Positions 13,991 through 38,269 of a stretch of 64,000 nucleotides of DNA are shown here, piece after piece. Position 1 is the first letter of the stretch; the number at the start of each line of letters is the position of its first letter. The stretch lies in sequence record NC_052652.1. One strand, given 5' to 3'. Source of the stretch: Escherichia phage vB_EcoM_PHB05. The translations under genes were made by a program, and so were the position numbers. Under the pieces are notes generated by a model that was not told the DNA's origin, searched no databases, and worked only from the letters and a program-made list of their open reading frames with translations.

Positions 13991-14268
13991 TACTTATTCC
14001 TTTTGTTGTTGATCACATCTAAAGCTGTGTAAGGTTTGTTTGTACCGCTGTATTCAAGAATAATTGGTACATATTCATAGACCAACTCAAAAGTACCATA
14101 CATAGAATCTGCAACTGAAATAAGCATTTCAGTGCCTTTGTCGTTCTTAATTAATGAAAATCTTGCCCCTGGTTTATTGAGCACTTCATATTTCTTACCT
14201 GCTGTCAGCAAACCTGAATACCATTCATTTTGCACAACAGACAAACACTTCAGATAAGTTTTTCTCAT
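13990..14268 (-). CDS. hypothetical protein
   Basis: 92-aa ORF. Confidence 0.3.
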   Translation of the reverse strand: MRKTYLKCLSVVQNEWYSGLLTAGKKYEVLNKPGARFSLIKNDKGTEMLISVADSMYGTFELVYEYVPIILEYSGTNKPYTALDVINNKRNK

Positions 14269-14606
14269 TTCTTTTTGCTCCTTCTTTTAGGCTTCTCGTA
14301 TAAACCTAACACAGCCGATTCTTTTGCGCAAATAGGAACTGACTTCATTCCTCGTTTTTTAGCTTCTGGTAGATTCAAAACCCACCAGCCAAACCAGTAC
14401 AATTCATCTTCTGTGAAAGGATCTGCCATAGGATCTGCATCCCGTTCTTCAAATTTAGCAAGAGCTTCTTCTATCTTTTCTATTGGAGTATCAAAGACAA
14501 AAGCCTCTGTGTCAAATTTTTGTTTCTTAGGAGCGGCTTTTGCCGCCCCATCTTTAGATGCGCGCTTTGTTACGGATCGCTTCTTCGGTGTTTTCGCCAT
14601 CAACAA
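14265..14606 (-). CDS. hypothetical protein with Lys-rich basic N-terminus
   Basis: MAKTPKKRSVTKRASKDGAAKAAPKKQK basic tail. Confidence 0.35.
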   Translation of the reverse strand: MLMAKTPKKRSVTKRASKDGAAKAAPKKQKFDTEAFVFDTPIEKIEEALAKFEERDADPMADPFTEDELYWFGWWVLNLPEAKKRGMKSVPICAKESAVLGLYEKPKRRSKKK

Positions 14607-14793
14607 CCTCCATGCGGTGTAAGAAATCTTGCTGGAATCGCCAATACTGTTGACCAGTCCTTACATCTTCGTAGATCACAACAGGATCAAATACTTTAGA
14701 TACACCCGCTGGTTTAGGAAAGCCAACTACACGATATAAACCGCCTTTGCTAATACAAGAATATGTTACATCAGTTAAAATTTCTTTTTTCAT
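14554..14793 (-). CDS. hypothetical protein
   Basis: 79-aa ORF. Confidence 0.3.
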   Translation of the reverse strand: MKKEILTDVTYSCISKGGLYRVVGFPKPAGVSKVFDPVVIYEDVRTGQQYWRFQQDFLHRMEVVDGENTEEAIRNKARI

Positions 14794-19276: not shown

Positions 19277-19349
19277 GGTTCCATAGCTCACTGACGAGAG
19301 CGCACACCTCATAAGTGTCGAGGGCAGGGATTGTAACCCTGGGGAACCA
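19277..19349 (+). tRNA. tRNA-like, anticodon CAU (Met/Ile2-type), atypical D and T loops
   Basis: Hand-folded cloverleaf; anticodon loop CTCATAA; T-loop ATTGTAA and D-loop without GG; CCA follows. Confidence 0.35.
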
Positions 19350-19383
19350 CCATTTAAAAGGAGGTGCTATGCATCTCCTATAT

Positions 19384-19469
19384 GCAAGTGTGGTGGAATT
19401 GGTGATACACATTGTGCTTAAAACGCAACGCTTAAATGATTGAGGGTTCGAATCCCTCCACTTGCACCA
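19384..19469 (+). tRNA. tRNA-Leu (anticodon UAA), type II, CCA encoded
   Basis: Acceptor GCAAGTG/CACTTGC, T-arm GAGGGTTCGAATCCCTC, anticodon loop CTTAAAA. Confidence 0.65.
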
Positions 19470-19471
19470 AC

Positions 19472-19577
19472 GCCTAGTAGGGTATTTGGTAATTCCGAGG
19501 CCATCAAAGCCTGAAAAATATGTTAGACCGCTTTGTCTAACTAAATACGAAATATGGTTCGATTCCATAACTAGGCT
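19472..19577 (+). tRNA. 106-nt tRNA-like element, anticodon loop CATCAAA (UCA), 6-bp D-stem with 4-nt loop, 39-nt extra arm
   Basis: Perfect acceptor GCCTAGT/ACTAGGC and canonical T-arm TATGGTTCGATTCCATA; internal 7-bp hairpin GTTAGAC/GTCTAAC. Confidence 0.35.
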
Positions 19578-19610
19578 TCAATTTAAATAATAATTTTTAG
19601 TAAAAATATC

Positions 19611-19639
19611 TTGACATTCACTTAGTTTTTTGTTATAGT
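19611..19639 (+). promoter_or_regulatory. promoter TTGACA-N17-TATAGT inside tRNA cluster
   Basis: Strong hexamers immediately upstream of the tRNA at 19651. Confidence 0.5.
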
Positions 19640-19650
19640 TGCTTTGAAAA

Positions 19651-19729
19651 CGGGGTGTATCTCACCTGACTTCTAATCAGGCGTTAACCGAGTAATTGGA
19701 GTATGCAGGTTCGAATCCTGTCACCCCGA
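19651..19729 (+). tRNA. tRNA-Arg-like (anticodon UCU) without a conventional D-arm
   Basis: Perfect acceptor CGGGGTG/CACCCCG, anticodon arm CCTGA-CTTCTAA-TCAGG, T-arm GCAGGTTCGAATCCTGT, CCA encoded; only 5 nt where D-arm should be. Confidence 0.4.
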
Positions 19730-19751
19730 CCAAAAAGTTTTTAAAAACTAC

Positions 19752-19781
19752 TTGACAAGCAAGATAGTTTTATGTTAGATT
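19752..19781 (+). promoter_or_regulatory. promoter candidate TTGACA-N18-TAGATT
   Basis: Consensus -35, moderate -10. Confidence 0.35.
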
Positions 19782-19796
19782 TAAAGTATGATAACG

Positions 19797-19883
19797 GGAA
19801 GGTAGGGCGCAGCGGTGCGCAACCAGGTTTGAACCCTGGCCCATTGTAGCGATACGGTGATGGTTCGACTCCATTATCTTCCT
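19797..19883 (+). tRNA. tRNA-Ser (anticodon UGA), type II
   Basis: Acceptor GGAAGGT/ATCTTCC, anticodon loop TTTGAAC, long variable arm, T-arm GATGGTTCGACTCCATT, CCA encoded. Confidence 0.65.
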
Positions 19884-19904
19884 CCAAATTCAACTAGGAG
19901 CTTT

Positions 19905-20057
19905 ATGAATTATAAAACTATTGGACAGGTTGTTACAGGAGTTAAGATTGTAGATAATAAGGTTGTTTATGAGTATTCTAATCTTCAACAATCTGAAGAT
20001 GGTAAGAATATTCGTATGGTAAAAGCAGAACAAAAAGACTCCGGTTGTTTTGAATAA
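19905..20057 (+). CDS. small hypothetical protein embedded in tRNA cluster
   Basis: 50-aa ORF MNYKTIGQVV... after AGGAG RBS. Confidence 0.35.
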   Translation: MNYKTIGQVVTGVKIVDNKVVYEYSNLQQSEDGKNIRMVKAEQKDSGCFE

Positions 20058-20065
20058 TTAAGAAC

Positions 20066-20148
20066 GGTAGATTGGTGAAATGGTAGCCACAACAGTTTGC
20101 TAAACTGTCGTCGGAAACGGCGTGTAGGTTCAAGTCCTACATCTACCG
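20066..20148 (+). tRNA. tRNA-Ser (anticodon GCU), type II
   Basis: Acceptor GGTAGAT/ATCTACC, anticodon loop TTGCTAA, T-arm GTAGGTTCAAGTCCTAC, CCA encoded. Confidence 0.65.
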
Positions 20149-20277
20149 CCAAGTTATCTTTAATGTAGCTTGTAATCTTACTTTAATAGAGTAAATCTTC
20201 GGCAAGTGGCGGTAACCACTTTACCGATATCCCATAGTCAAGTGCCGCAAACACTGGCTATTTTAAAGATAATTTAT

Positions 20278-20350
20278 ACATCGTTAGCTCAGTTGGTAGA
20301 GCAAGGGGCTTTTAACTCCAAGGTCGAAGGTTCGAATCCTTCACGATGTA
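20278..20350 (+). tRNA. tRNA-Lys (anticodon UUU)
   Basis: D-arm GCTCAGTTGGTAGAGC, anticodon loop CTTTTAA, T-arm GAAGGTTCGAATCCTTC, CCA encoded. Confidence 0.65.
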
Positions 20351-20358
20351 CCAAACAC

Positions 20359-20442
20359 GTAGGTATCGCATAGCGGCAATTGCTGGAGACTGTAAATCTC
20401 CTGCCCTTCGGGGCTTCGTTGGTTCGAGTCCAACTACCTGCA
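20359..20442 (+). tRNA. tRNA-Tyr (anticodon GUA), type II
   Basis: Anticodon arm GGAGA-CTGTAAA-TCTCC, T-arm GTTGGTTCGAGTCCAAC, CCA encoded. Confidence 0.65.
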
Positions 20443-20452
20443 CCAAATTAAA

Positions 20453-20534
20453 GATGGATTGGCCTAGTGGTTGGGCGACGGACTGTTAATCCGTGAACGA
20501 AAGTTCTAGCAAGGTTCAAATCCTTGATCCATCG
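20453..20534 (+). tRNA. tRNA-Asn (anticodon GUU) with unusually long variable arm
   Basis: Perfect acceptor GATGGAT/ATCCATC, anticodon arm ACGGA-CTGTTAA-TCCGT, 15-nt variable region with GAAC-GAAA-GTTC hairpin, T-arm CAAGGTTCAAATCCTTG. Confidence 0.5.
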
Positions 20535-20544
20535 CCAGAATTAT

Positions 20545-20621
20545 GGACTTGTAGAGTTAAGGTAAACCCCCAGTCGCCAAGAGGCTTCTGGAATTGCAGG
20601 TATCGAATCCTGCCGAGTCCA
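20545..20621 (+). tRNA. tRNA-like element with T-arm and acceptor pairing but no clear anticodon arm (possible pseudo-tRNA)
   Basis: Acceptor GGACTTG/CGAGTCC, T-arm GCAGGTATCGAATCCTGC with 8-nt loop; no CCA. Confidence 0.25.
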
Positions 20622-20627
20622 AGTATT

Positions 20628-20698
20628 GCTCCTATCGTATAACGGCTATTACGGTTGCCTTGTAAGCAACTTATCAGGGTTCGAGTCCTTGTGGGAGC
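20628..20698 (+). tRNA. tRNA-Thr (anticodon UGU)
   Basis: Anticodon arm GTTGC-CTTGTAA-GCAAC, T-arm CAGGGTTCGAGTCCTTG, CCA encoded. Confidence 0.65.
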
Positions 20699-20719
20699 AC
20701 CAATTTTAACTCTAAAGGA

Positions 20720-21049
20720 GTGTATGTGACAGAAAAAGAGTTAGAGAAATATTTTAATATCAATGTTTTCGATGGTTTTGATGATATTGAAGATGTTGAA
20801 AGATATTATGAAGTAGAGTTAGATAAGGATAACATTGTAATTCTTTCTGCCACTTATGATTGTGCATATTATGAAGGTGAATCTCACGTTTATTTTTATG
20901 ATATGAAAACATCTTTGTTTTATGAAGTACACGCATATCATTGTTCTTGTTATGGCTTAGAAGGTCAGTGGGAACCTGAAGAAATAGGTGATTTGGATTT
21001 TACTATTGCATATCTAAACAGACGTGGTGCATCTACTATTTTAAAATAA
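20720..21049 (+). CDS. hypothetical protein
   Basis: 109-aa ORF with GTG start after AAAGGAG. Confidence 0.45.
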   Translation: MYVTEKELEKYFNINVFDGFDDIEDVERYYEVELDKDNIVILSATYDCAYYEGESHVYFYDMKTSLFYEVHAYHCSCYGLEGQWEPEEIGDLDFTIAYLNRRGASTILK

Positions 21050-21063
21050 ATATCAAAAGCCTC

Positions 21064-21093
21064 TTGACAAAGGGGCTAATAATATGTTAGAGT
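21064..21093 (+). promoter_or_regulatory. promoter TTGACA-N18-TAGAGT
   Basis: Same hexamer pair as the prs promoter. Confidence 0.45.
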
Positions 21094-21104
21094 AATATTG
21101 TTAA

Positions 21105-21176
21105 GCGGGTATAGTGTTAATGGTAGCATATGAGGTTTCCACCCTCCAGGTGCAGGTTCAAGTCCTGTTACTCGCT
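21105..21176 (+). tRNA. tRNA-Gly (anticodon UCC)
   Basis: Anticodon loop TTTCCAC, T-arm GCAGGTTCAAGTCCTGT, CCA encoded. Confidence 0.6.
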
Positions 21177-21278
21177 CCAAGATTATTTAAATGGAATCGC
21201 TAGAGAAAATTTCTCTTTTCGCTCATGGTTTTCTCCTTCAAACTCTAGCGGTTCTTTTTAAGTGATTTTTAGTTTTAT

Positions 21279-21350
21279 TGGAGATTAGCCTAGTGGGAAG
21301 GCAACGGCCTTTGAAGTCGTGATGACTAGGTTCGATTCCTAGATCTCCAG
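21279..21350 (+). tRNA. tRNA-Gln (anticodon UUG)
   Basis: U1-A72 acceptor, anticodon arm ACGGC-CTTTGAA-GTCGT, T-arm CTAGGTTCGATTCCTAG, CCA encoded. Confidence 0.65.
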
Positions 21351-21360
21351 CCAGTATTTA

Positions 21361-21433
21361 CAGTGCGTAGCGCAGTTGGTAGCGTGGGAGCTTTGGATGC
21401 TTCGGGTCGCAGGTTCGAGTCCTGCCGCACTGA
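21361..21433 (+). tRNA. tRNA-Pro (anticodon UGG)
   Basis: C1-G72 acceptor, D-arm GCGCAGTTGGTAGCGT, anticodon loop TTTGGAT, T-arm GCAGGTTCGAGTCCTGC, CCA encoded. Confidence 0.65.
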
Positions 21434-21441
21434 CCAAATTT

Positions 21442-21513
21442 GCAGAGATAGCTGAGACGGATTAGTGCTACCCTGAAAAGGTAGAAAGGATGGATCGTTA
21501 CCATCTCTCTGCA
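21442..21513 (+). tRNA. tRNA-Phe (anticodon GAA)
   Basis: Anticodon arm CTACC-CTGAAAA-GGTAG, T-loop ATCGTTA (non-canonical), CCA encoded. Confidence 0.55.
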
Positions 21514-21593
21514 CCAAATAACACCATCCAAGGAGTAGACTTGGTTAACTGTCAATAGCACATTGAGGCTTCTTACAGTGGTGTGCTTATTAT

Positions 21594-21674
21594 GGCTAAG
21601 TGGTGGAATGGTATACACGATACGCTTAGAACGTATTGCCCCAAGGGATTGTGAGTTCGAGTCTCACCTTAGCT
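21594..21674 (+). tRNA. tRNA-Leu (anticodon UAG), type II
   Basis: Anticodon arm ATACG-CTTAGAA-CGTAT, T-arm GTGAGTTCGAGTCTCAC, CCA encoded. Confidence 0.6.
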
Positions 21675-21765
21675 ACCATATCTAAGAGATATCATAGGGT
21701 TTGCAACGGATATCTACCGTCCTGTTAAGGATACCACGCCAAGACGGGTTATAAAGGGTTAGCCA

Positions 21766-21838
21766 TTGATAGTGTGAAGCTGGCGTTTCGAGTGCTTTCA
21801 TAAGGCATTGCGAGAAGAGTTCGATTCTCTTACTATCA
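21766..21838 (+). tRNA. tRNA with anticodon CAU (Met or Ile2)
   Basis: Anticodon loop TTCATAA, T-arm AAGAGTTCGATTCTCTT, CCA encoded. Confidence 0.55.
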
Positions 21839-21856
21839 ACCAAATTACTACAGATT

Positions 21857-21932
21857 GCGCGGGATAGAGGAGTCTGGTCGTCCTCGCCAGTTTCATATGC
21901 TGGAGATCATCGGTTCGAATCCGATTCCCGCC
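21857..21932 (+). tRNA. tRNA with anticodon CAU (Met or Ile2)
   Basis: D-arm GAGG...CCTC, anticodon arm CCAGT-TTCATAT-GCTGG, T-arm ATCGGTTCGAATCCGAT, CCA encoded; position 1 mismatched. Confidence 0.55.
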
Positions 21933-21993
21933 TCCATTAAATACCTCCCTTCTGGTGTAATGATTAAATTGCATTGACACTTCAAGGAACTCA

Positions 21994-22073
21994 TAGCCGG
22001 GTAGATTTAAAAGAGTATGGTACTCAATATGGCTCCAAACCATAGATCAAGGGGTTCGATTCCTCACCTTGCT
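21994..22073 (+). tRNA. tRNA-Trp-like (anticodon CCA), atypical 5' half
   Basis: Anticodon arm TATGG-CTCCAAA-CCATA and T-arm GGGGTTCGATTCC are clear; acceptor and D region do not fold canonically by hand. Confidence 0.4.
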
Positions 22074-22081
22074 GCCAATTA

Positions 22082-22154
22082 TTGTGGTATCGTACAGATG
22101 GTTAGTACACTCGACCGATAATCGAGAAACAACGGTTCGACTCCGTTTACCACG
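22082..22154 (+). tRNA. tRNA-Ile (anticodon GAU)
   Basis: D-arm GTAC...GTAC, anticodon arm CTCGA-CCGATAA-TCGAG, T-arm AACGGTTCGACTCCGTT, CCA encoded. Confidence 0.6.
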
Positions 22155-22159
22155 ACCAA

Positions 22160-33451: not shown

Positions 33452-34858
33452 ATGGCAACTTTTCGTGATAAGGTAGTTTCCGTAACCCTTACCTACGGTG
33501 CTACTTCAATTAGTGAAACACAGTTTGATATCCCTCTAATTCTTACAGGGCATAACGTTACTGGCAATCTTGTAGATTATTTCACTTCTTCAGACGCACT
33601 TCTGCAAGCAGGTTTTGGCACTGCCGACCCAGCTTATAAAATGGCAAAACTACTATTTGACGGTCTGTTCGCACCAGAACAAGTTATCGTCGGTAAGCGT
33701 GATGTTTCTAAAACAACTCTAACTCCAGTAGTTGAAGATAGTGCAACTTACGTTATCACTATTAAAGCAAATTCAAAAAGCAAGGACTTCAAGTTTGTTG
33801 CCGATGATACTGCAACTGCTCAAGAGATTGTTGTTGGTTTAACAGAAATGATCAACGCAGACATGGTGTATAAAGAATTCTTCACTGTGTCAAACGATGG
33901 TAGTGTTATCACTGTAACCCCAGTTGCAGGTAAATACGCTACTATGGATAGTTCAGGATTCACAACTAAAGTAGAATATGCAAATGATATCTTAGAAGAT
34001 ATTGCTAAAATTGCAGATTATGAAAACAGTTGGTTCTGGTTACTATCTGATTCTCACGCAGAACAAGATATTATCGATCTAGCAGGTTATGTAGAAGAGC
34101 ACGATAAAGTGTATTTCTTCTCTACCTCGCAACCAGGTGTTCTAACTAAAGAAGAAGATAACATTCTAGAACGCTTAGGTGATATGGGCTACAATAACAC
34201 TTGTATGGCATTGTGGATGACTAACGCTGATACAGTGTTCCCAGAGGCTGCTGTAGTTGGTTCTATCTGCTCTGCAACACCAGGTACTACTACCCTGCAT
34301 GGTAAAACCCTTGTTGGTATCGAGATTGAAAAACTTGGTCAGACAGCAGAAAACTTTATCGTTCAACAGAATGGTAATATTTACCGTAAAGAACACGGTG
34401 TTCTGTTCTACCGTGATGGTTTCATGGTTAGTGGTTTCTATGTTGACTATGTGGTACACGCTCTGTGGTTCAAAGCTCGCGTAGAAGAATCTCTGTTTGC
34501 TCTATTCAAACAGCAATCTATGCTTGGTAGTGGTGTTAGAGCAACTTCTGCTGGTCTTGCTTTGATTCGTCAGGCTGTTACTGCAAACCCAATCCAAGTA
34601 GGTATTAACAATGGTTCTATTGCCAATGAGGTAGTAACTTCAGAGGAAACAGGACTTCTGGTAAGCCTTAAACCTACTATCTATATCCCATCTCGTGCAG
34701 ATATGACTGATGCTCAAATCAATGCACGTTTGGTTGATGGTATGGTTATTGAATACGTATATGCTGGATTCTTCCACTATGTTAAAGTGCAGGTAAACGT
34801 TCTGACGAACCGCACTGCAAATAGCCAGAATTCCAATAGCTCTACTGTATCTTCATAA
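33452..34858 (+). CDS. tail sheath protein
   Basis: 468-aa ORF immediately upstream of tube, chaperone and tape-measure genes. Confidence 0.5.
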   Translation: MATFRDKVVSVTLTYGATSISETQFDIPLILTGHNVTGNLVDYFTSSDALLQAGFGTADPAYKMAKLLFDGLFAPEQVIVGKRDVSKTTLTPVVEDSATYVITIKANSKSKDFKFVADDTATAQEIVVGLTEMINADMVYKEFFTVSNDGSVITVTPVAGKYATMDSSGFTTKVEYANDILEDIAKIADYENSWFWLLSDSHAEQDIIDLAGYVEEHDKVYFFSTSQPGVLTKEEDNILERLGDMGYNNTCMALWMTNADTVFPEAAVVGSICSATPGTTTLHGKTLVGIEIEKLGQTAENFIVQQNGNIYRKEHGVLFYRDGFMVSGFYVDYVVHALWFKARVEESLFALFKQQSMLGSGVRATSAGLALIRQAVTANPIQVGINNGSIANEVVTSEETGLLVSLKPTIYIPSRADMTDAQINARLVDGMVIEYVYAGFFHYVKVQVNVLTNRTANSQNSNSSTVSS

Positions 34859-34916: not shown

Positions 34917-35396
34917 TTGGATAAAATGCTTACTGGCGTAATGGCCTATGATCCTTCTCAAGTAATCCTGTCTTTGGGTGGTTGGGAACCTTGGGGTTTC
35001 GCCGCAGATACCAAAATTGTTATTAACAAAACTAACGATATCATCAACCCATATTCAGGTACTGATGGTGACGTTTCCTTGGCGCTTAGTCGTAACCGTT
35101 TAGGTACGCTAACAATGTCACTGCAACGTACTTCCCCAGCAAACGAAGTTCTTGCTGCTTATGCACAAACGATGTATTCTACTCGTCAAGTAGCATTTAG
35201 CGTATATCTAGAAGACCCTCGCGGATATTATATCAGCACAATTGGTTGGATTCAAAGCCAACCGGACGATACTATTGGTGAAACTATTCAAGAAAACCAA
35301 TGGGTGATCGGTCTTAAAGATGCAAGCCTACTTCGTTCTACTGTAGGTGTTGGTGTTAACGCACTTAACTCTATTAGTGCTCTAACTATTCAGTAA
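34917..35396 (+). CDS. tail tube protein
   Basis: 159-aa ORF after sheath; TTG start 6 nt after AAGGAGA. Confidence 0.45.
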   Translation: MDKMLTGVMAYDPSQVILSLGGWEPWGFAADTKIVINKTNDIINPYSGTDGDVSLALSRNRLGTLTMSLQRTSPANEVLAAYAQTMYSTRQVAFSVYLEDPRGYYISTIGWIQSQPDDTIGETIQENQWVIGLKDASLLRSTVGVGVNALNSISALTIQ

Positions 35397-35400
35397 TAAA

Positions 35401-35426
35401 AAGGGCAGAAATGCCCTTTATTTTTA
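35401..35426 (+). terminator. intrinsic terminator
   Basis: AAGGGCA-GAAA-TGCCCTT hairpin followed by TATTTTT. Confidence 0.6.
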
Positions 35427-35441
35427 AAGAGAGAGGAAATA

Positions 35442-35924
35442 ATGGAACAACAAAAAGATAATACTATTGCAAAATTTGCTCGTCCAGAAGTAATGGTTGA
35501 AATTGATCTGGATGAAGGACGCAGTGTAAAATTTAGAGTTCTCAAGTGGAGTCCAACTAAAGTTTTTGAAAGGATTCCAGAACTAGGTAGTGTACTGGCT
35601 GTTCCTATGACAATGTATAATACTGCTCTTATGTCAGCAGACGAAGATCTAGAAGCTCGTATTGCTATGGCACTGATCCAATTATTCAGTGGTCTGGAAG
35701 AAAAAAACTTAGCTGCATTCTTACGTAAAATTTTAGATGAAGTTTACACAGAAGCAGGACACAGTGTTTCCGATAATTTTGATGAATTGTTTTTTGCTCA
35801 CCCAGAATTAGTTGTTGACTTAGCTGCAAAAGTTCTTGAGGTGAACTATGCCCCTTTTTTCAAACGAGGTTTCGGAAAACTGTTGACCCAATTTCAAGGA
35901 ATAGAGACTCTAGCGAAGAGTTAA
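35442..35924 (+). CDS. tail assembly chaperone (upstream frame)
   Basis: Between tube and tape-measure genes; contains slippery heptamer near its 3' end. Confidence 0.5.
   Translation: MEQQKDNTIAKFARPEVMVEIDLDEGRSVKFRVLKWSPTKVFERIPELGSVLAVPMTMYNTALMSADEDLEARIAMALIQLFSGLEEKNLAAFLRKILDEVYTEAGHSVSDNFDELFFAHPELVVDLAAKVLEVNYAPFFKRGFGKLLTQFQGIETLAKS
35855..35861 (+). promoter_or_regulatory. -1 programmed ribosomal frameshift slippery site T_TTT_TTC
   Basis: X_XXY_YYZ heptamer in frame of 35442-35924; -1 frame is open from here through 36199. Confidence 0.5.
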
Positions 35925-35971
35925 GTCCGGCAATTAAATCAGCAATTGAAATTGCCTCACAAACCCTTAGC

Positions 35972-36199
35972 TTGACATGGTATGAAGTAATTCTTTGTAA
36001 GGTAATTAAGAATACCTCCGAAACCTTGTCCTCGTTAGATAATTATGGTGTAGATTATCTACTTAAAATTTATGAATATTTAACATTCGAAGACTATGTA
36101 CAAGATCTTCACGTTAAAGATGCGGATATTAAACGTGGTCAACAGAGAACAATAAGAGAACTGGATACGGCTATGAAAAAATTAATTCCAGATTCATAA
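35972..36199 (+). CDS. tail assembly chaperone, -1 frame extension (frameshift product C-terminus)
   Basis: In -1 frame relative to 35442-35924 with no stop between slippery site and this ORF. Confidence 0.45.
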   Translation: MTWYEVILCKVIKNTSETLSSLDNYGVDYLLKIYEYLTFEDYVQDLHVKDADIKRGQQRTIRELDTAMKKLIPDS

Positions 36200-36218
36200 G
36201 TAATACGGAGGATTACCC

Positions 36219-38201
36219 TTGTTAGAAATTAACACTTCCAAGATTAAGAATACAGTAACGTTTACTGTAGATAAAGACAGTTTAAAAAATACTAAAGACG
36301 CAATTAAAAACCTTAAAACTTTTACAGAATCTATTGAACCATCTTTAAATATGACTAAAATGCGTCGTCAGTTTAAAAGTATGGAAGAGTATGCTAAAAG
36401 AATAAGGCAGCAAATGTCAGGTCTTGGCGGCGGTAATCCTCCACCAATCCCACCAACCGGAGGTTCAAGGGGCGGTGGTGGAAAAGGAGGAAGTGGTAGA
36501 GGTGGTTCTGGATCTTCTGGAGGACGTAAAACACCAGAGGAAAGAGCCGCAGAAGCCGCCGCTAAACGTGCAGCACTTGCTAATATGAAGCAAGACGATT
36601 TTAGTTTTAAAGCTATGCCTTTTACAAAAGCAGACAGCAGAATTCTAGAAAAATCTAAAAAGATTGTAGAAGAAACTGTTGAACTTTATCGTAAAGGCGT
36701 GATCACTAGCCAACAAATGAATAATACTTTGGCTAGACAGTTAGAAGAACTACGCAGATCTCATAAAGAGAAGAATGCACAGCTTCTTGATGAAGAGAGA
36801 GCTAGACGTAGAATTGCCCGTCTGCAAGAAGCAGAAGATAAAAGAAGACAGCGTATCCGAGAAAGAGAAAGAAAGGATTTCGAACGTCAGCAAAGAAGAG
36901 AGAAAGAAGCAAGACAACGCGACAGACAACGTAAGCTATCTGGTGTAGGTAATGCTGCCATTGCTCTTAACCCTGCTATGTTCGGTGCTGCTCTTTTAGG
37001 TGCTGGTTTATATCAAGGTATAAGTAAAATTGCCGAAAGTATTACTGCATCGGCAGAGCGTGTTAATATGGTTAGTAGAGGTGGTCAGAACGTACAGGTA
37101 AACCCTAACGCAATCTTAACAATGCGTACTTGGGGTGAAATGAACGGTGTAGACTCTGCTAGTATTATTAAAGCTATTGATAACCTTAAAGACGTTCGTG
37201 AACGTTTAGGTAACACTGTACTCCACTCTGAATTTGATGAAAAATCAGGTAAATGGAAAGGTGGAGATAGTGGTATTAATGAAATCATGAACAAATTTGG
37301 TTGGTCGAAGGAAGATGTTGCTAAATTCCAGAACAGACCTTTAGACTTTGTTCAAGCACTTGTTAATGAAGGTCAAAAAAGAGGAATGAACTCTGCGCAA
37401 ATTGGTCGTCTGATGGAAAACCTTGGTGATGACTTAATGCACTACCAACGTATGTTTTTGGACAATGGTAAAGAGTTTATGGAAGTCCTGAGAATGTTAA
37501 GTAATTCAGGTGCAACTCTTAACGATGAAAACATCAAAGCAGCACAAGATTTTGTTAAACTAAGAGCAGAAATTAGTGCAGCAGGAGAAGGTTTTACCAA
37601 TAACTTACTTGTAGGTTTTATGGATGGTTTAAAATCTGCACCAGATTTTGCAGAGAATATGAAAACTTTCCAAGAGGCTGCTCGTGGTCTTGGTGAAATG
37701 TCTGGTAGTATTGTAAGTAGCCTTGCAAAAATTGCAAAATATTTCCTTGATTTTTCAAATAAGGTTGGGCCAAAAAACAATACTAAAGAAGCTGTAAGAG
37801 ATTATTATAATGGTACGCAGTATGGGTACGATGCACAGGTTGGTGGTAATCCTTGGGCTTATTGGCCTATTGGAAGAGATCAACATAAACCTGAAAATCA
37901 ACCTTTAGGTGACTTTGATAGTAGTTTCTTAACTAGCGCCTTAAATCCAAGTGCTTCTAGTATTGGTTACAACAGACCTGATTTAACAGCATCTATGCTA
38001 ACACCACGCCAAGGTGTTCCAATACCGTTAAATCTACAGAATACGGTTGTTATCCCAGACAACGCATTCCAGATTAATGTTATTCCAGATGGTTATGGTT
38101 TTAGTAATTATCTAGATGCAACAATGAATACCAGTTTTAGTAACTTCTCACAAGGTTTAACTCTTCAGTTAAGCAGTGGACAATCTTCTACTGGTGGTTA
38201 A
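36219..38201 (+). CDS. tail tape measure protein
   Basis: 660 aa; Gly-rich segment, Arg/Glu-rich coiled coil, hydrophobic segment MFGAALLGAGL; TTG start after ACGGAGGA. Confidence 0.55.
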   Translation: MLEINTSKIKNTVTFTVDKDSLKNTKDAIKNLKTFTESIEPSLNMTKMRRQFKSMEEYAKRIRQQMSGLGGGNPPPIPPTGGSRGGGGKGGSGRGGSGSSGGRKTPEERAAEAAAKRAALANMKQDDFSFKAMPFTKADSRILEKSKKIVEETVELYRKGVITSQQMNNTLARQLEELRRSHKEKNAQLLDEERARRRIARLQEAEDKRRQRIRERERKDFERQQRREKEARQRDRQRKLSGVGNAAIALNPAMFGAALLGAGLYQGISKIAESITASAERVNMVSRGGQNVQVNPNAILTMRTWGEMNGVDSASIIKAIDNLKDVRERLGNTVLHSEFDEKSGKWKGGDSGINEIMNKFGWSKEDVAKFQNRPLDFVQALVNEGQKRGMNSAQIGRLMENLGDDLMHYQRMFLDNGKEFMEVLRMLSNSGATLNDENIKAAQDFVKLRAEISAAGEGFTNNLLVGFMDGLKSAPDFAENMKTFQEAARGLGEMSGSIVSSLAKIAKYFLDFSNKVGPKNNTKEAVRDYYNGTQYGYDAQVGGNPWAYWPIGRDQHKPENQPLGDFDSSFLTSALNPSASSIGYNRPDLTASMLTPRQGVPIPLNLQNTVVIPDNAFQINVIPDGYGFSNYLDATMNTSFSNFSQGLTLQLSSGQSSTGG

Positions 38202-38208
38202 TGGATAA

Positions 38209-38236
38209 AGCCTCGCTTCGGCGGGGCTTTTTATTT
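38209..38236 (+). terminator. intrinsic terminator
   Basis: AGCCTCGC-TTCG-GCGGGGCT hairpin followed by TTTTATTT. Confidence 0.65.
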
Positions 38237-38239
38237 GTC

Positions 38240-38269
38240 TTGACAAAGAGTTGTTTTTCGTGATAAAAT
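38240..38269 (+). promoter_or_regulatory. promoter TTGACA-N18-TAAAAT with extended -10 TG
   Basis: Immediately after terminator, upstream of baseplate genes. Confidence 0.5.

What the first reader, a model, noticed from the sequence alone, without database searches (positions are those of the whole stretch)
35850..36199. Programmed -1 frameshift site joining the two tail assembly chaperone ORFs
Heptamer T_TTT_TTC (35855-35861) lies in frame near the 3' end of ORF 35442-35924, and the -1 frame is open from that point through ORF 35972-36199. The pair sits between tail tube and tape measure genes, the conserved position of frameshifted chaperones (lambda G/GT-like) in tailed phages.
Basis: partly seen in the sequence, partly recalled or inferred. 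Interest (0 to 1): 0.45.

Follow-up and report, generated by a model that had tools for sequence, protein, structure and literature searches.

The report
Tail chaperone -1 frameshift site
This phi92-like E. coli phage almost certainly makes a long and a short tail assembly chaperone from one gene by letting some ribosomes slip back one base at UUUUUUC, a textbook phage trick that public records of this lineage leave unannotated.

Summary
Codons 138-140 of ORF 35442-35924 read CCT TTT TTC, so U_UUU_UUC (35855-35861) is in phase. The -1 frame is open from 35840 to the stop at 36197-36199.

The window is a phi92-like myovirus (Justusliebigvirus). Gene order is sheath, tube, chaperone (Pfam PF21822), -1 ORF, tape measure.

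A heptamer in the 82-nt overlap is only about an 11% chance event. Comparative evidence decides it:
- TTTTTTC is invariant and in phase in 17/17 GenBank relatives (down to 24% protein identity) and 43/43 IMG/VR loci.
- The preceding codon changes amino acid (Pro/Cys/Ser) but always ends in T.
- Only 5 of 142 third-codon positions are invariant, and three of them are in the heptamer.
- The -1 frame is always open for 101-131 codons and has no conserved start codon or ribosome-binding site.
- A Barbavirus relative has G_GGA_AAG at the same spot.

I found no conserved downstream RNA structure. An SD-like GAGGTGA lies 10 nt upstream but is not universal.

Predicted products are a 160-aa chaperone and a 252-aa fusion, join(35442..35861,35861..36199). 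This is an ordinary new member of the lambda G/GT class. None of the inspected records annotates the join. Expression was not tested.

The parts
34917..35396 (+). Tail tube gene (phi92 gp131 homologue); upstream neighbour
   Evidence: phrog_280 E 1.8e-36. Pfam PF11681 KPP10_Orf10, 27.1 bits against a cutoff of 25. Annotated as tail tube in BASEL records. The rV5 homologue gp52 was identified as tail tube by mass spectrometry (PMC3606486).
35400..35419 (+). Terminator-like hairpin (8 bp, followed by a T tract) between the tube gene and the chaperone gene; probably lowers expression of the downstream genes
   Evidence: The homologous position carries an annotated terminator in PAK_P4. The attenuating function is inferred.
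35442..35924 (+). Zero-frame tail assembly chaperone, TAC-N (160 aa; phi92 gp132 homologue)
   Evidence: Pfam PF21822 Phage_TAC_15 E 1.6e-22. phrog_3840 E 4.4e-54. RefSeq phi92 and muut name it 'tail assembly chaperone'.
35838..35844 (+). SD-like GAGGTGA (7-nt complement to the 16S rRNA 3' end), 10 nt 5' of the heptamer; possible lineage-specific frameshift enhancer
   Evidence: Sequence. An SD-like match of 5 nt or more lies 10-13 nt upstream in about 20 of 36 distinct contexts and is absent in 10 of 36. Sharma et al. searched for SD stimulators 6-17 nt upstream (PMC4066793). The stimulatory role is inferred.
35852..35858 (+). Overlapping alternative slippery heptamer C_CCU_UUU; in phase; gives the same product
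   Evidence: Conserved only in Stephanstirmvirinae. The motif exceeded 0.1% frameshifting without a stimulator in E. coli (PMC4066793).
35855..35861 (+). Slippery heptamer U_UUU_UUC (zero-frame codons 139-140, TTT TTC, preceded by the T of CCT)
   Evidence: In phase. Invariant in 17/17 GenBank relatives and 43/43 IMG/VR loci. Three of the only 5 invariant third-codon positions in 142 columns fall here. H_HH.U_UU.Y motifs are among the most efficient in E. coli (PMC4066793).
35861..36199 (+). -1 frame extension (112 aa plus stop): linker and helical 'T' domain. It contains the separately annotated gp133 ORF 35972-36199. The proposed CDS is join(35442..35861,35861..36199), giving a 252-aa TAC-NC.
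   Evidence: Frame open. phrog_16039 E 3.8e-45. The -1 frame is open for 101-131 codons in every relative. Residues conserved across subfamilies lie upstream of the TTG at 35972, and there is no SD. The AF2 model has a helix at residues 23-35, before the annotated start (mean pLDDT 68).
36219..38201 (+). Tape measure protein gene (660 aa; TTG start; GGAGG at 36207-36211); downstream neighbour and presumed client of the chaperones
   Evidence: phrog_16051 E 0 over residues 1-660. phi92 gp134 annotation. A terminator-like hairpin follows at 38207-38230.

Best explanation
This is a programmed -1 ribosomal frameshift in the tail assembly chaperone gene of a phi92-like myovirus.

Proposed mechanism:
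- Most ribosomes read 35442-35924 and release the 160-aa chaperone TAC-N.
- A minority slip when tRNA-Phe occupies both the P site (UUU) and the A site (UUC) at U_UUU_UUC. They move back one base, re-pair with UUU UUU and continue with CAA at 35861 in the -1 frame to the stop at 36197-36199.
- The result is a 252-aa fusion (TAC-NC): residues 1-140 of TAC-N, a linker, and a helical C-terminal domain.
- Slipping one codon earlier, on C_CCU_UUU, gives the same protein.

Inferred function, by analogy with lambda gpG/gpGT:
- Both forms coat the tape measure protein through the shared N domain.
- The rarer C-terminal domain recruits the tube protein to start polymerisation.
- Neither protein stays in the virion.

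What is shown and what is inferred:
- Shown: the anatomy, family membership, nucleotide-level conservation of the slip site and the lack of an independent start.
- Inferred: that slippage occurs, its efficiency (probably a few percent or less) and the binding partners.
For: 1. The heptamer is in phase inside the 82-nt overlap, and the -1 frame is open for 112 codons beyond it.
2. The locus is sheath-tube-TAC-(-1 ORF)-TMP, and the upstream ORF is Pfam PF21822 Phage_TAC_15.
3. TTTTTTC is invariant and in phase in 17/17 GenBank relatives across Stephanstirmvirinae and Vequintavirinae, down to 24% protein identity, and in 43/43 IMG/VR loci with 23 distinct contexts.
4. In 46 distinct genes, third-codon positions are invariant at only 5 of 142 columns: the single-codon Trp36, codons 138, 139 and 140, and codon 143. 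Codon 138 encodes Pro, Cys or Ser but is always NNT.
5. No conserved start codon or SD precedes the -1 ORF. The window's TTG at 35972 has no SD, and conserved residues lie upstream of it. Database ORF calls for homologues begin at six or more positions.
6. Wider relatives keep the -1 architecture with the same or different slip motifs at the same place. Felixounavirus Alf5 and Aeromonas PhAER-4 have TTTTTTC in phase. Barbavirus has G_GGA_AAG. Vibrio qdvp001 has A_AAT_TTT.
7. U_UU.U_UU.C and C_CC.U_UU.U both gave more than 0.1% -1 frameshifting in E. coli without a stimulator, and H_HH.U_UU.Y is among the most efficient classes (PMC4066793).
8. A conserved -1 PRF on a GTTTTT motif was independently proposed for the chaperone genes of the related Vandenendeviridae and Andersonviridae (PMC12846349).
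Against: - There is no direct evidence of the fusion protein. The rV5 genome and proteome paper does not mention frameshifting, a chaperone or a tape measure protein, and no held paper links phi92 with a frameshift.
- I found no conserved downstream hairpin or pseudoknot. The window fold has z = -0.88, RNAalifold found no consensus pairs within 85 nt 3' of the heptamer in either subfamily or overall, and Rfam returned nothing above threshold.
- The upstream SD-like element is absent from about a quarter of relatives.
- No natural in-frame fusion exists among T-domain homologues; all are 138 aa or shorter.
- None of the 31 annotated regions inspected, nor the feature lists of about 150 hit rows, shows a joined CDS.
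- A heptamer in the overlap is by itself about an 11% chance event.
Confidence: 0.9

Rival explanations
1. Two separate genes. The -1 ORF (phi92 gp133) is translated on its own from TTG 35972 or by reinitiation after the TAC-N stop, and no fusion is made.
For: This is how nearly every public record annotates it. All database homologues are short stand-alone ORF calls of 55-138 aa.
Against: - The ORF has no ATG before residue 105, and there is no SD before TTG 35972.
- Annotated and called starts differ between relatives, and some cut into the conserved SLTWYEV block.
- Conserved residues (RFR just after the slip site, the P..A...A..SL helix) lie upstream of that TTG.
- The -1 frame is open back to the heptamer in 60/60 loci although 48 nt of it is 'intergenic' here.
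- This reading does not explain the nucleotide-level invariance of NNT TTT TTC.
Confidence: 0.04
2. Transcriptional slippage. RNA polymerase adds an extra U on the T6 run, and ribosomes reach the -1 frame by standard decoding.
For: The signal is a homopolymer run. In more distant clades (Pakpunavirus PAK_P4, Acinetobacter YMC13) a T6 run is kept in a different codon phase (GTT TTT TCN) with the -1 frame still open. That pattern would suit a phase-independent mechanism.
Against: - The run is exactly six T in all 60 loci and never longer. By my own recollection of the literature, not a tool result, documented bacterial slippage sites use longer runs of about 8-9 or more.
- In this lineage the run is fixed in the canonical tandem-slippage phase, including the T of a codon whose amino acid varies.
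- The Barbavirus and Vibrio relatives replace it with the non-homopolymeric heptamers G_GGA_AAG and A_AAT_TTT.
Confidence: 0.05
3. A chance heptamer. The -1 ORF is non-functional or the arrangement has no recoding role.
For: In-phase heptamers are common in this AT-rich genome: 1 per 221 codons, about 11% for this overlap.
Against: The heptamer, its phase and the open -1 frame are conserved across two subfamilies and beyond. The -1 product is a conserved protein family, phrog_16039 at E 3.8e-45.
Confidence: 0.01

Closest known systems
Phage lambda gpG / gpGT (-1 frameshift at G_GGA_AAG); the class defined by Xu, Hendrix and Duda 2004, as summarised in PMC5009743
   Same: Two overlapping ORFs lie between the major tail/tube gene and the tape measure gene. 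[quoted passage not shown] The -1 extension has no start of its own, and no stimulatory RNA structure is evident. A Barbavirus relative of this locus carries lambda's own heptamer, G_GGA_AAG.
   Different: The heptamer differs (U_UUU_UUC). The host virion is a contractile-tailed myovirus. The chaperone belongs to Pfam PF21822 (Phage_TAC_15). The 30:1 ratio and the binding partners known for lambda are untested here.
Proposed -1 PRF in the chaperone genes of Vandenendeviridae (Pakpunavirus) and Andersonviridae (FelixO1/Moogle-like), 'GTTTTT' motif (PMC12846349, 2025)
   Same: These are evolutionarily related myoviruses with homologous tube proteins. A poly-T slip motif sits at the 3' end of TAC-N, the -1 frame is uninterrupted, and the downstream ORF is routinely mis-annotated as a separate hypothetical protein. 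Felixounavirus Alf5 has the identical in-phase TTTTTTC within the motif NFGSFF, against NYAPFF here.
   Different: That paper did not analyse the Stephanstirmvirinae or Vequintavirinae loci, as far as its text shows. In PAK_P4 the T6 run is in another codon phase (GTT TTT TCT), so it is not a canonical tandem heptamer there.
Phage P2 gpE / gpE+E' (myovirus chaperone frameshift; recalled from memory, Christie et al. 2002)
   Same: It is a contractile-tailed phage with a -1 shift on a T-rich heptamer immediately upstream of the tape measure gene.
   Different: The heptamer (recalled as T_TTT_TTG) and the protein family differ. This comparison was not tested here.
E. coli dnaX -1 frameshift (A_AAA_AAG with an upstream SD-like element and a downstream hairpin)
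   Same: In this window an SD-like GAGGTGA lies 10 nt 5' of the heptamer, which is the spacing class that stimulates -1 shifts.
   Different: There is no conserved downstream hairpin. The SD-like element is not conserved in all relatives. Here the shift lengthens the product, whereas in dnaX it shortens it.
T4-like phage tail chaperones (Vladimirov et al. 2022, as described in PMC10885494)
   Same: They share the need for a short and a long chaperone form.
   Different: T4-like phages carry separate genes for the short and the fused long form. Here there is one TAC-N gene and a -1 ORF, and no in-frame fused homologue was found.

Membership tests
Lambda G/GT-type frameshifted tail assembly chaperone pair (Xu-Hendrix-Duda class) | Two ORFs located between the major tail/tube gene and the tape measure gene | tested here: met
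   Order is sheath 33452-34858, tube 34917-35396, TAC 35442-35924, -1 ORF to 36199, TMP 36219-38201.
Lambda G/GT-type frameshifted tail assembly chaperone pair (Xu-Hendrix-Duda class) | Second ORF overlaps the 3' end of the first in another frame and lacks its own initiation signals | tested here: met
   The -1 frame is open from 35840, giving an 82-nt overlap. There is no ATG before residue 105 and no SD before TTG 35972. No start is conserved among relatives.
Lambda G/GT-type frameshifted tail assembly chaperone pair (Xu-Hendrix-Duda class) | In-phase slippery sequence within the overlap, conserved among relatives | tested here: met
   U_UUU_UUC at 35855-35861 is invariant in 60/60 loci. Third-position invariance is confined to the heptamer plus two other codons.
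Lambda G/GT-type frameshifted tail assembly chaperone pair (Xu-Hendrix-Duda class) | Short and fused long products both made, at a fixed low ratio | not testable with these tools
   This needs mass spectrometry, western blotting or a reporter assay. No published data were found.
Lambda G/GT-type frameshifted tail assembly chaperone pair (Xu-Hendrix-Duda class) | N domain binds the tape measure protein, C (T) domain binds the tube protein, and both are absent from virions | not testable with these tools
   Inferred from lambda (PMC5009743). The AF2 model of the T region shows a disordered linker and then helices (mean pLDDT 68), which does not bear on binding.
Pfam PF21822 Phage_TAC_15 | Score above the curated gathering threshold over most of the model | tested here: met
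   80.8 bits against a cutoff of 22; model positions 3-123 of 127; E 1.6e-22. phrog_3840 'tail assembly chaperone' also matches at E 4.4e-54.
Stimulated -1 PRF signals (dnaX / IS3 type) | Downstream hairpin or pseudoknot 5-9 nt 3' of the heptamer, conserved or covarying | tested here: not met
   The window fold has z = -0.88. RNAalifold found no pairs in 15 sequences and none within 85 nt 3' of the heptamer in either subfamily set. Rfam returned nothing above gathering.
Stimulated -1 PRF signals (dnaX / IS3 type) | Upstream SD-like element 6-17 nt 5' of the heptamer | tested here: inconclusive
   GAGGTGA lies 10 nt upstream in the window. A match of 5 nt or more is present in about 20 of 36 distinct contexts and absent in 10 of 36. 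It coincides with the conserved Leu-Glu-Val codons.
Transcriptional slippage sites | Long homopolymer run (about 8-9 or more A/T; threshold from my own knowledge) | tested here: not met
   The run is exactly T6, flanked by non-T, in all loci.
T4-like arrangement (separate short and fused long chaperone genes) | A second, in-frame gene encoding TAC-N fused to the C domain | tested here: not met
   There is one TAC-N gene in the locus. All T-domain homologues in 5.8 billion and 1.84 billion protein sets are 138 aa or shorter and carry no TAC Pfam domain.

The most novel reading that the evidence does not exclude
The signal is a structure-less U6C heptamer frozen unchanged across at least two subfamilies, Felixounavirus and an Aeromonas phage. 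Its efficiency might be set by unconventional means: the phage's own adjacent tRNA-Pro(UGG) and tRNA-Phe(GAA) genes (21361-21516), which decode exactly CCU UUU UUC, or the invariant CGGUUUCG motif 6-9 nt downstream acting as a new kind of stimulator rather than merely reflecting dual coding.
Probability: 0.08. Interest if true: 0.5.

Novelty: new member of a known kind. Interest (0 to 1): 0.2.

Why it matters
The main value is correct annotation. At least 369 GenBank phage records contain this locus (phi92-, phAPEC8-, rV5-, PVP-SE1- and phiTE-like phages, many of them therapy candidates). They list the second ORF as a stand-alone 'hypothetical protein' with arbitrary starts, or omit it. It should be annotated as join(35442..35861,35861..36199) with ribosomal_slippage.

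The locus also gives a clean natural example of a slip site maintained at the nucleotide level while the overlapping amino acid changes. It extends the chaperone frameshift recently proposed for Pakpunavirus and FelixO1-like phages to the Stephanstirmvirinae and Vequintavirinae.

It does not change understanding of frameshifting or of tail assembly.

Tried and rejected
- Downstream stimulatory RNA. I tried single-sequence folding, RNAalifold on 15 loci, subfamily-specific RNAalifold over four windows and Rfam at E up to 1. No consensus pairs appeared within 85 nt 3' of the heptamer, only a weak 5-bp hairpin about 88 nt downstream and weak pairings upstream of or across the heptamer. The two sub-threshold Rfam hits (SraG-like and a CRISPR repeat, both on the minus strand) look like chance.
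- Natural in-frame fusions ('Rosetta stone'). I searched the T region against 5.8 billion clustered proteins and 1.84 billion representatives. Only short ORFs came back, so the result is neutral.
- Structure of the T region. The model has moderate to low confidence (mean pLDDT 68, pTM 0.37). I used it only to note a predicted helix upstream of the annotated start and did not run a fold search, because matches to such a model would be unreliable.
- Literature on phi92, rV5, Stephanstirmvirinae or Vequintavirinae together with frameshift. Nothing is specific to this lineage. Vladimirov et al. 2022 could not be read.
- Upstream SD as a conserved stimulator. I rejected it as universal and kept it as a possible local enhancer.
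- Another high-scoring -1 extension at + ORF 14230-14622. I dismissed it because the real genes there are on the minus strand.

Full report
**What the sequence shows.** ORF 35442-35924 encodes 160 aa. It has an ATG start with GAGG 5 nt upstream and a TAA stop at 35922-35924. The -1 frame has a stop at 35837-35839 and is then open from 35840 to TAA 36197-36199. The two frames therefore overlap for 82 nt, and the heptamer sits 15 nt into that overlap. The +1 frame offers only 7 codons. A second canonical heptamer, C_CCT_TTT at 35852-35858, overlaps the first. Slipping on either gives the same protein...NYAPFF|QTRFRK.... The predicted fusion is join(35442..35861,35861..36199): 252 aa, made of 140 shared residues and 112 new ones.

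**What the locus is.** The window is about 99% identical to phi92 and other Justusliebigvirus genomes (Stephanstirmvirinae).
- Gene order is tail sheath (phrog_205), tube homologue (phrog_280; Pfam PF11681), this ORF, the -1 ORF, then a 660-aa tape measure protein (phrog_16051).
- The ORF is a tail assembly chaperone by Pfam PF21822 (80.8 bits, cutoff 22) and phrog_3840.
- In phi92 the two ORFs are gp132 ('tail assembly chaperone') and gp133 ('Phi92_gp133'), and gp134 is the tape measure protein.
- The rV5 homologue of the tube gene was identified as tail tube by virion mass spectrometry (PMC3606486).
- Terminator-like hairpins bracket the chaperone and tape measure genes at 35400-35419 and 38207-38230.

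**Is it more than chance?** On its own, barely. The window's ORFs contain 90 in-phase X_XXY_YYZ heptamers in about 19,900 codons, so one in a 27-codon overlap has roughly an 11% probability. Of all 90, however, this site gives by far the longest -1 extension: 112-113 codons, 90 of them beyond the zero-frame stop.

**Comparative evidence.** This is decisive.
- A tblastn search with the conceptual fusion found 369 phage records. In 58 of the 60 listed rows the match came in two pieces, one per frame.
- I fetched 16 diverse relatives from Justusliebigvirus, Phapecoctavirus, Avunavirus, Henunavirus, Seunavirus, Vequintavirus, Certrevirus, Mydovirus and unclassified groups, with TAC-N identity down to 24%.
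- In every one, TTTTTTC occurs at the homologous place, in phase and inside the overlap. The -1 frame runs 107-131 codons onward to just before the tape measure gene.
- 43 IMG/VR loci with 23 distinct contexts behave the same way.
- In a codon alignment of 46 distinct genes, the third position is invariant at only 5 of 142 columns: Trp36 (single codon), codons 138, 139 and 140, and codon 143. Codon 138 encodes Pro, Cys or Ser but is always CCT, TGT or AGT. Phe-Phe is always TTT TTC, although four synonymous combinations exist. The adjacent Asn, Tyr and Gly codons vary freely. This is selection on the RNA sequence U_UUU_UUC, not on the protein.
- The invariance of codon 143 (GGT) is explained by dual coding: G-F in frame 0 and a conserved R-F-R in frame -1 immediately after the slip.

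**The -1 ORF is not an independent gene.**
- It has no ATG before residue 105.
- The TTG at 35972 used in phi92 has no SD.
- Candidate starts are not conserved between relatives.
- Annotators and gene callers begin the homologues at six or more positions, several inside the conserved SLTWYEVILCKV block.
- Conserved residues and a predicted helix (residues 23-35 of the extension) lie upstream of the annotated start (the model has only moderate confidence).
- In Vequintavirinae the segment after the slip is a Gly/Ser-rich linker followed by the conserved helical domain, as expected for a two-domain fusion.

**Wider relatives.** The tube protein has homologues in FelixO1-like, Pakpunavirus, Barbavirus, Aeromonas, Vibrio and Acinetobacter phages. 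Their chaperone loci all have a -1 ORF running to the tape measure gene.
- Felixounavirus Alf5 (motif NFGSFF) and Aeromonas PhAER-4 carry TTTTTTC in phase.
- Barbavirus has G_GGA_AAG, lambda's own heptamer, at the equivalent position.
- Vibrio qdvp001 has A_AAT_TTT.
- Pakpunavirus PAK_P4 and Acinetobacter YMC13 keep a T6 run in another phase (GTT TTT TCN).

Replacement of one slippery motif by another at the same place argues that frameshifting itself is the conserved function. A 2025 paper independently proposed a conserved -1 PRF on 'GTTTTT' for Vandenendeviridae and Andersonviridae chaperone genes. It noted their relatedness to Vequintavirinae and Stephanstirmvirinae but did not, in the passages I retrieved, analyse these two groups (PMC12846349).

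**Stimulators.** I found no conserved downstream structure. The window fold has z = -0.88. RNAalifold gave no consensus pairs within 85 nt 3' of the heptamer, only a weak 5-bp hairpin about 88 nt downstream in one subfamily window and weak pairings upstream of or across the heptamer. Rfam gave nothing above threshold. By my recollection lambda G/GT also works without a downstream structure, so this does not count against the reading.

In the window an SD-like GAGGTGA (35838-35844) lies 10 nt 5' of the heptamer, within the 6-17 nt range searched by Sharma et al.. Such an element is missing from about a quarter of distinct relatives and coincides with conserved Leu-Glu-Val codons. It is at most a local enhancer.

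Sharma et al. measured more than 0.1% -1 frameshifting for both U_UU.U_UU.C and C_CC.U_UU.U without any stimulator. They place H_HH.U_UU.Y among the most efficient classes in E. coli (PMC4066793).

**Mechanism.** With tRNA-Phe on UUU (P site) and UUC (A site), both tRNAs slip 1 nt 5' and re-pair with UUU UUU. Decoding then resumes at CAA 35861. Non-shifted ribosomes add KRGFGKLLTQFQGIETLAKS and stop. By analogy with lambda (PMC5009743), many copies of TAC-N and a few of TAC-NC coat the tape measure protein. The C-terminal domain then recruits the tube protein, around which the sheath assembles. The anatomy and its conservation are shown here. The slippage, its ratio and the interactions are inferred.

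**Rivals.**
- Independent initiation of gp133 (0.04) is contradicted by the missing start signals and by the nucleotide-level conservation of the heptamer.
- Transcriptional slippage on T6 (0.05) gains some support from the phase-shifted T6 runs in distant clades. Against it, the run is never longer than six, it is fixed in the tandem-slip phase here, and non-homopolymeric heptamers replace it in other relatives.
- Chance (0.01) is excluded by the conservation.

**Known or new?** None of the 31 annotated regions inspected carries a joined CDS. The feature lists of about 150 hit rows show either two separate ORFs or only the first. No held paper links phi92- or rV5-like phages with a frameshift. 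The feature is therefore unannotated in this lineage, but it is an expected member of the conserved tail chaperone frameshift class.

**Verdict.** Novelty is 'new member of a known kind' and interest is 0.2.

Noticed in passing
window 19277-22158 (tRNA-Pro 21361-21436; tRNA-Phe 21442-21516): The window carries a cluster of 16 phage tRNA genes. tRNA-Pro(UGG) and tRNA-Phe(GAA) are adjacent, and these are the two tRNAs that decode the slip-site codons CCU UUU UUC. Any link to frameshift efficiency is speculation.
   Followed up: partly
window 35400-35419 and 38207-38269: Terminator-like hairpins lie just after the tube gene and just after the tape measure gene. The second is followed by a near-consensus promoter (TTGACA-18-TAAAAT, 38240-38269). 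Together they suggest a separately dosed chaperone and tape measure expression unit.
   Followed up: no
L063 2929 (Barbavirus); L066 2990 (Vibrio qdvp001); L062 4334 (PAK_P4); L067 3584 (Acinetobacter YMC13): Homologous chaperone loci in more distant myoviruses use other signals at the same place. Barbavirus has G_GGA_AAG and Vibrio qdvp001 has A_AAT_TTT. PAK_P4 and YMC13 have a T6 run in a non-canonical phase (GTT TTT TCN), which would need single-tRNA slippage or another mechanism.
   Followed up: partly
GenBank MG065645, MG065635, MG065646, MG065650, MG065655, MG065676: Records named 'Campylobacter phage' (host C. jejuni) are about 99% identical to E. coli phi92-like, phAPEC8-like or rV5-like phages at this locus. 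This looks like host misattribution or contamination in those deposits.
   Followed up: no
L002 1004-1096 (phi92 RefSeq), equivalent to the window's sheath gene 33452-34858: phi92 RefSeq annotates a 'Hypothetical tRNA' inside the tail sheath coding sequence. ARAGORN finds no tRNA in the equivalent part of the window, so this is probably an annotation artefact.
   Followed up: partly
window 32366-32782 and 32730-33431: Two + strand ORFs upstream of the sheath gene overlap by 53 nt, with the second in the +1 frame relative to the first and starting at its own ATG. I did not examine them for recoding.
   Followed up: no
window 35865-35872 and homologous positions in all loci: The motif CGGTTTCG, 6-9 nt 3' of the heptamer, is almost invariant at the nucleotide level, and GGT at codon 143 is invariant in 46/46 genes. 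Dual coding (G-F in frame 0, R-F-R in frame -1) explains it, but a role as an RNA element was not excluded.
   Followed up: partly
window 35397-35524, minus strand: A sub-threshold Rfam match to SraG sRNA (34.1 bits against a gathering score of 50) overlaps the terminator hairpin and the 5' end of the chaperone gene. It is probably chance.
   Followed up: no
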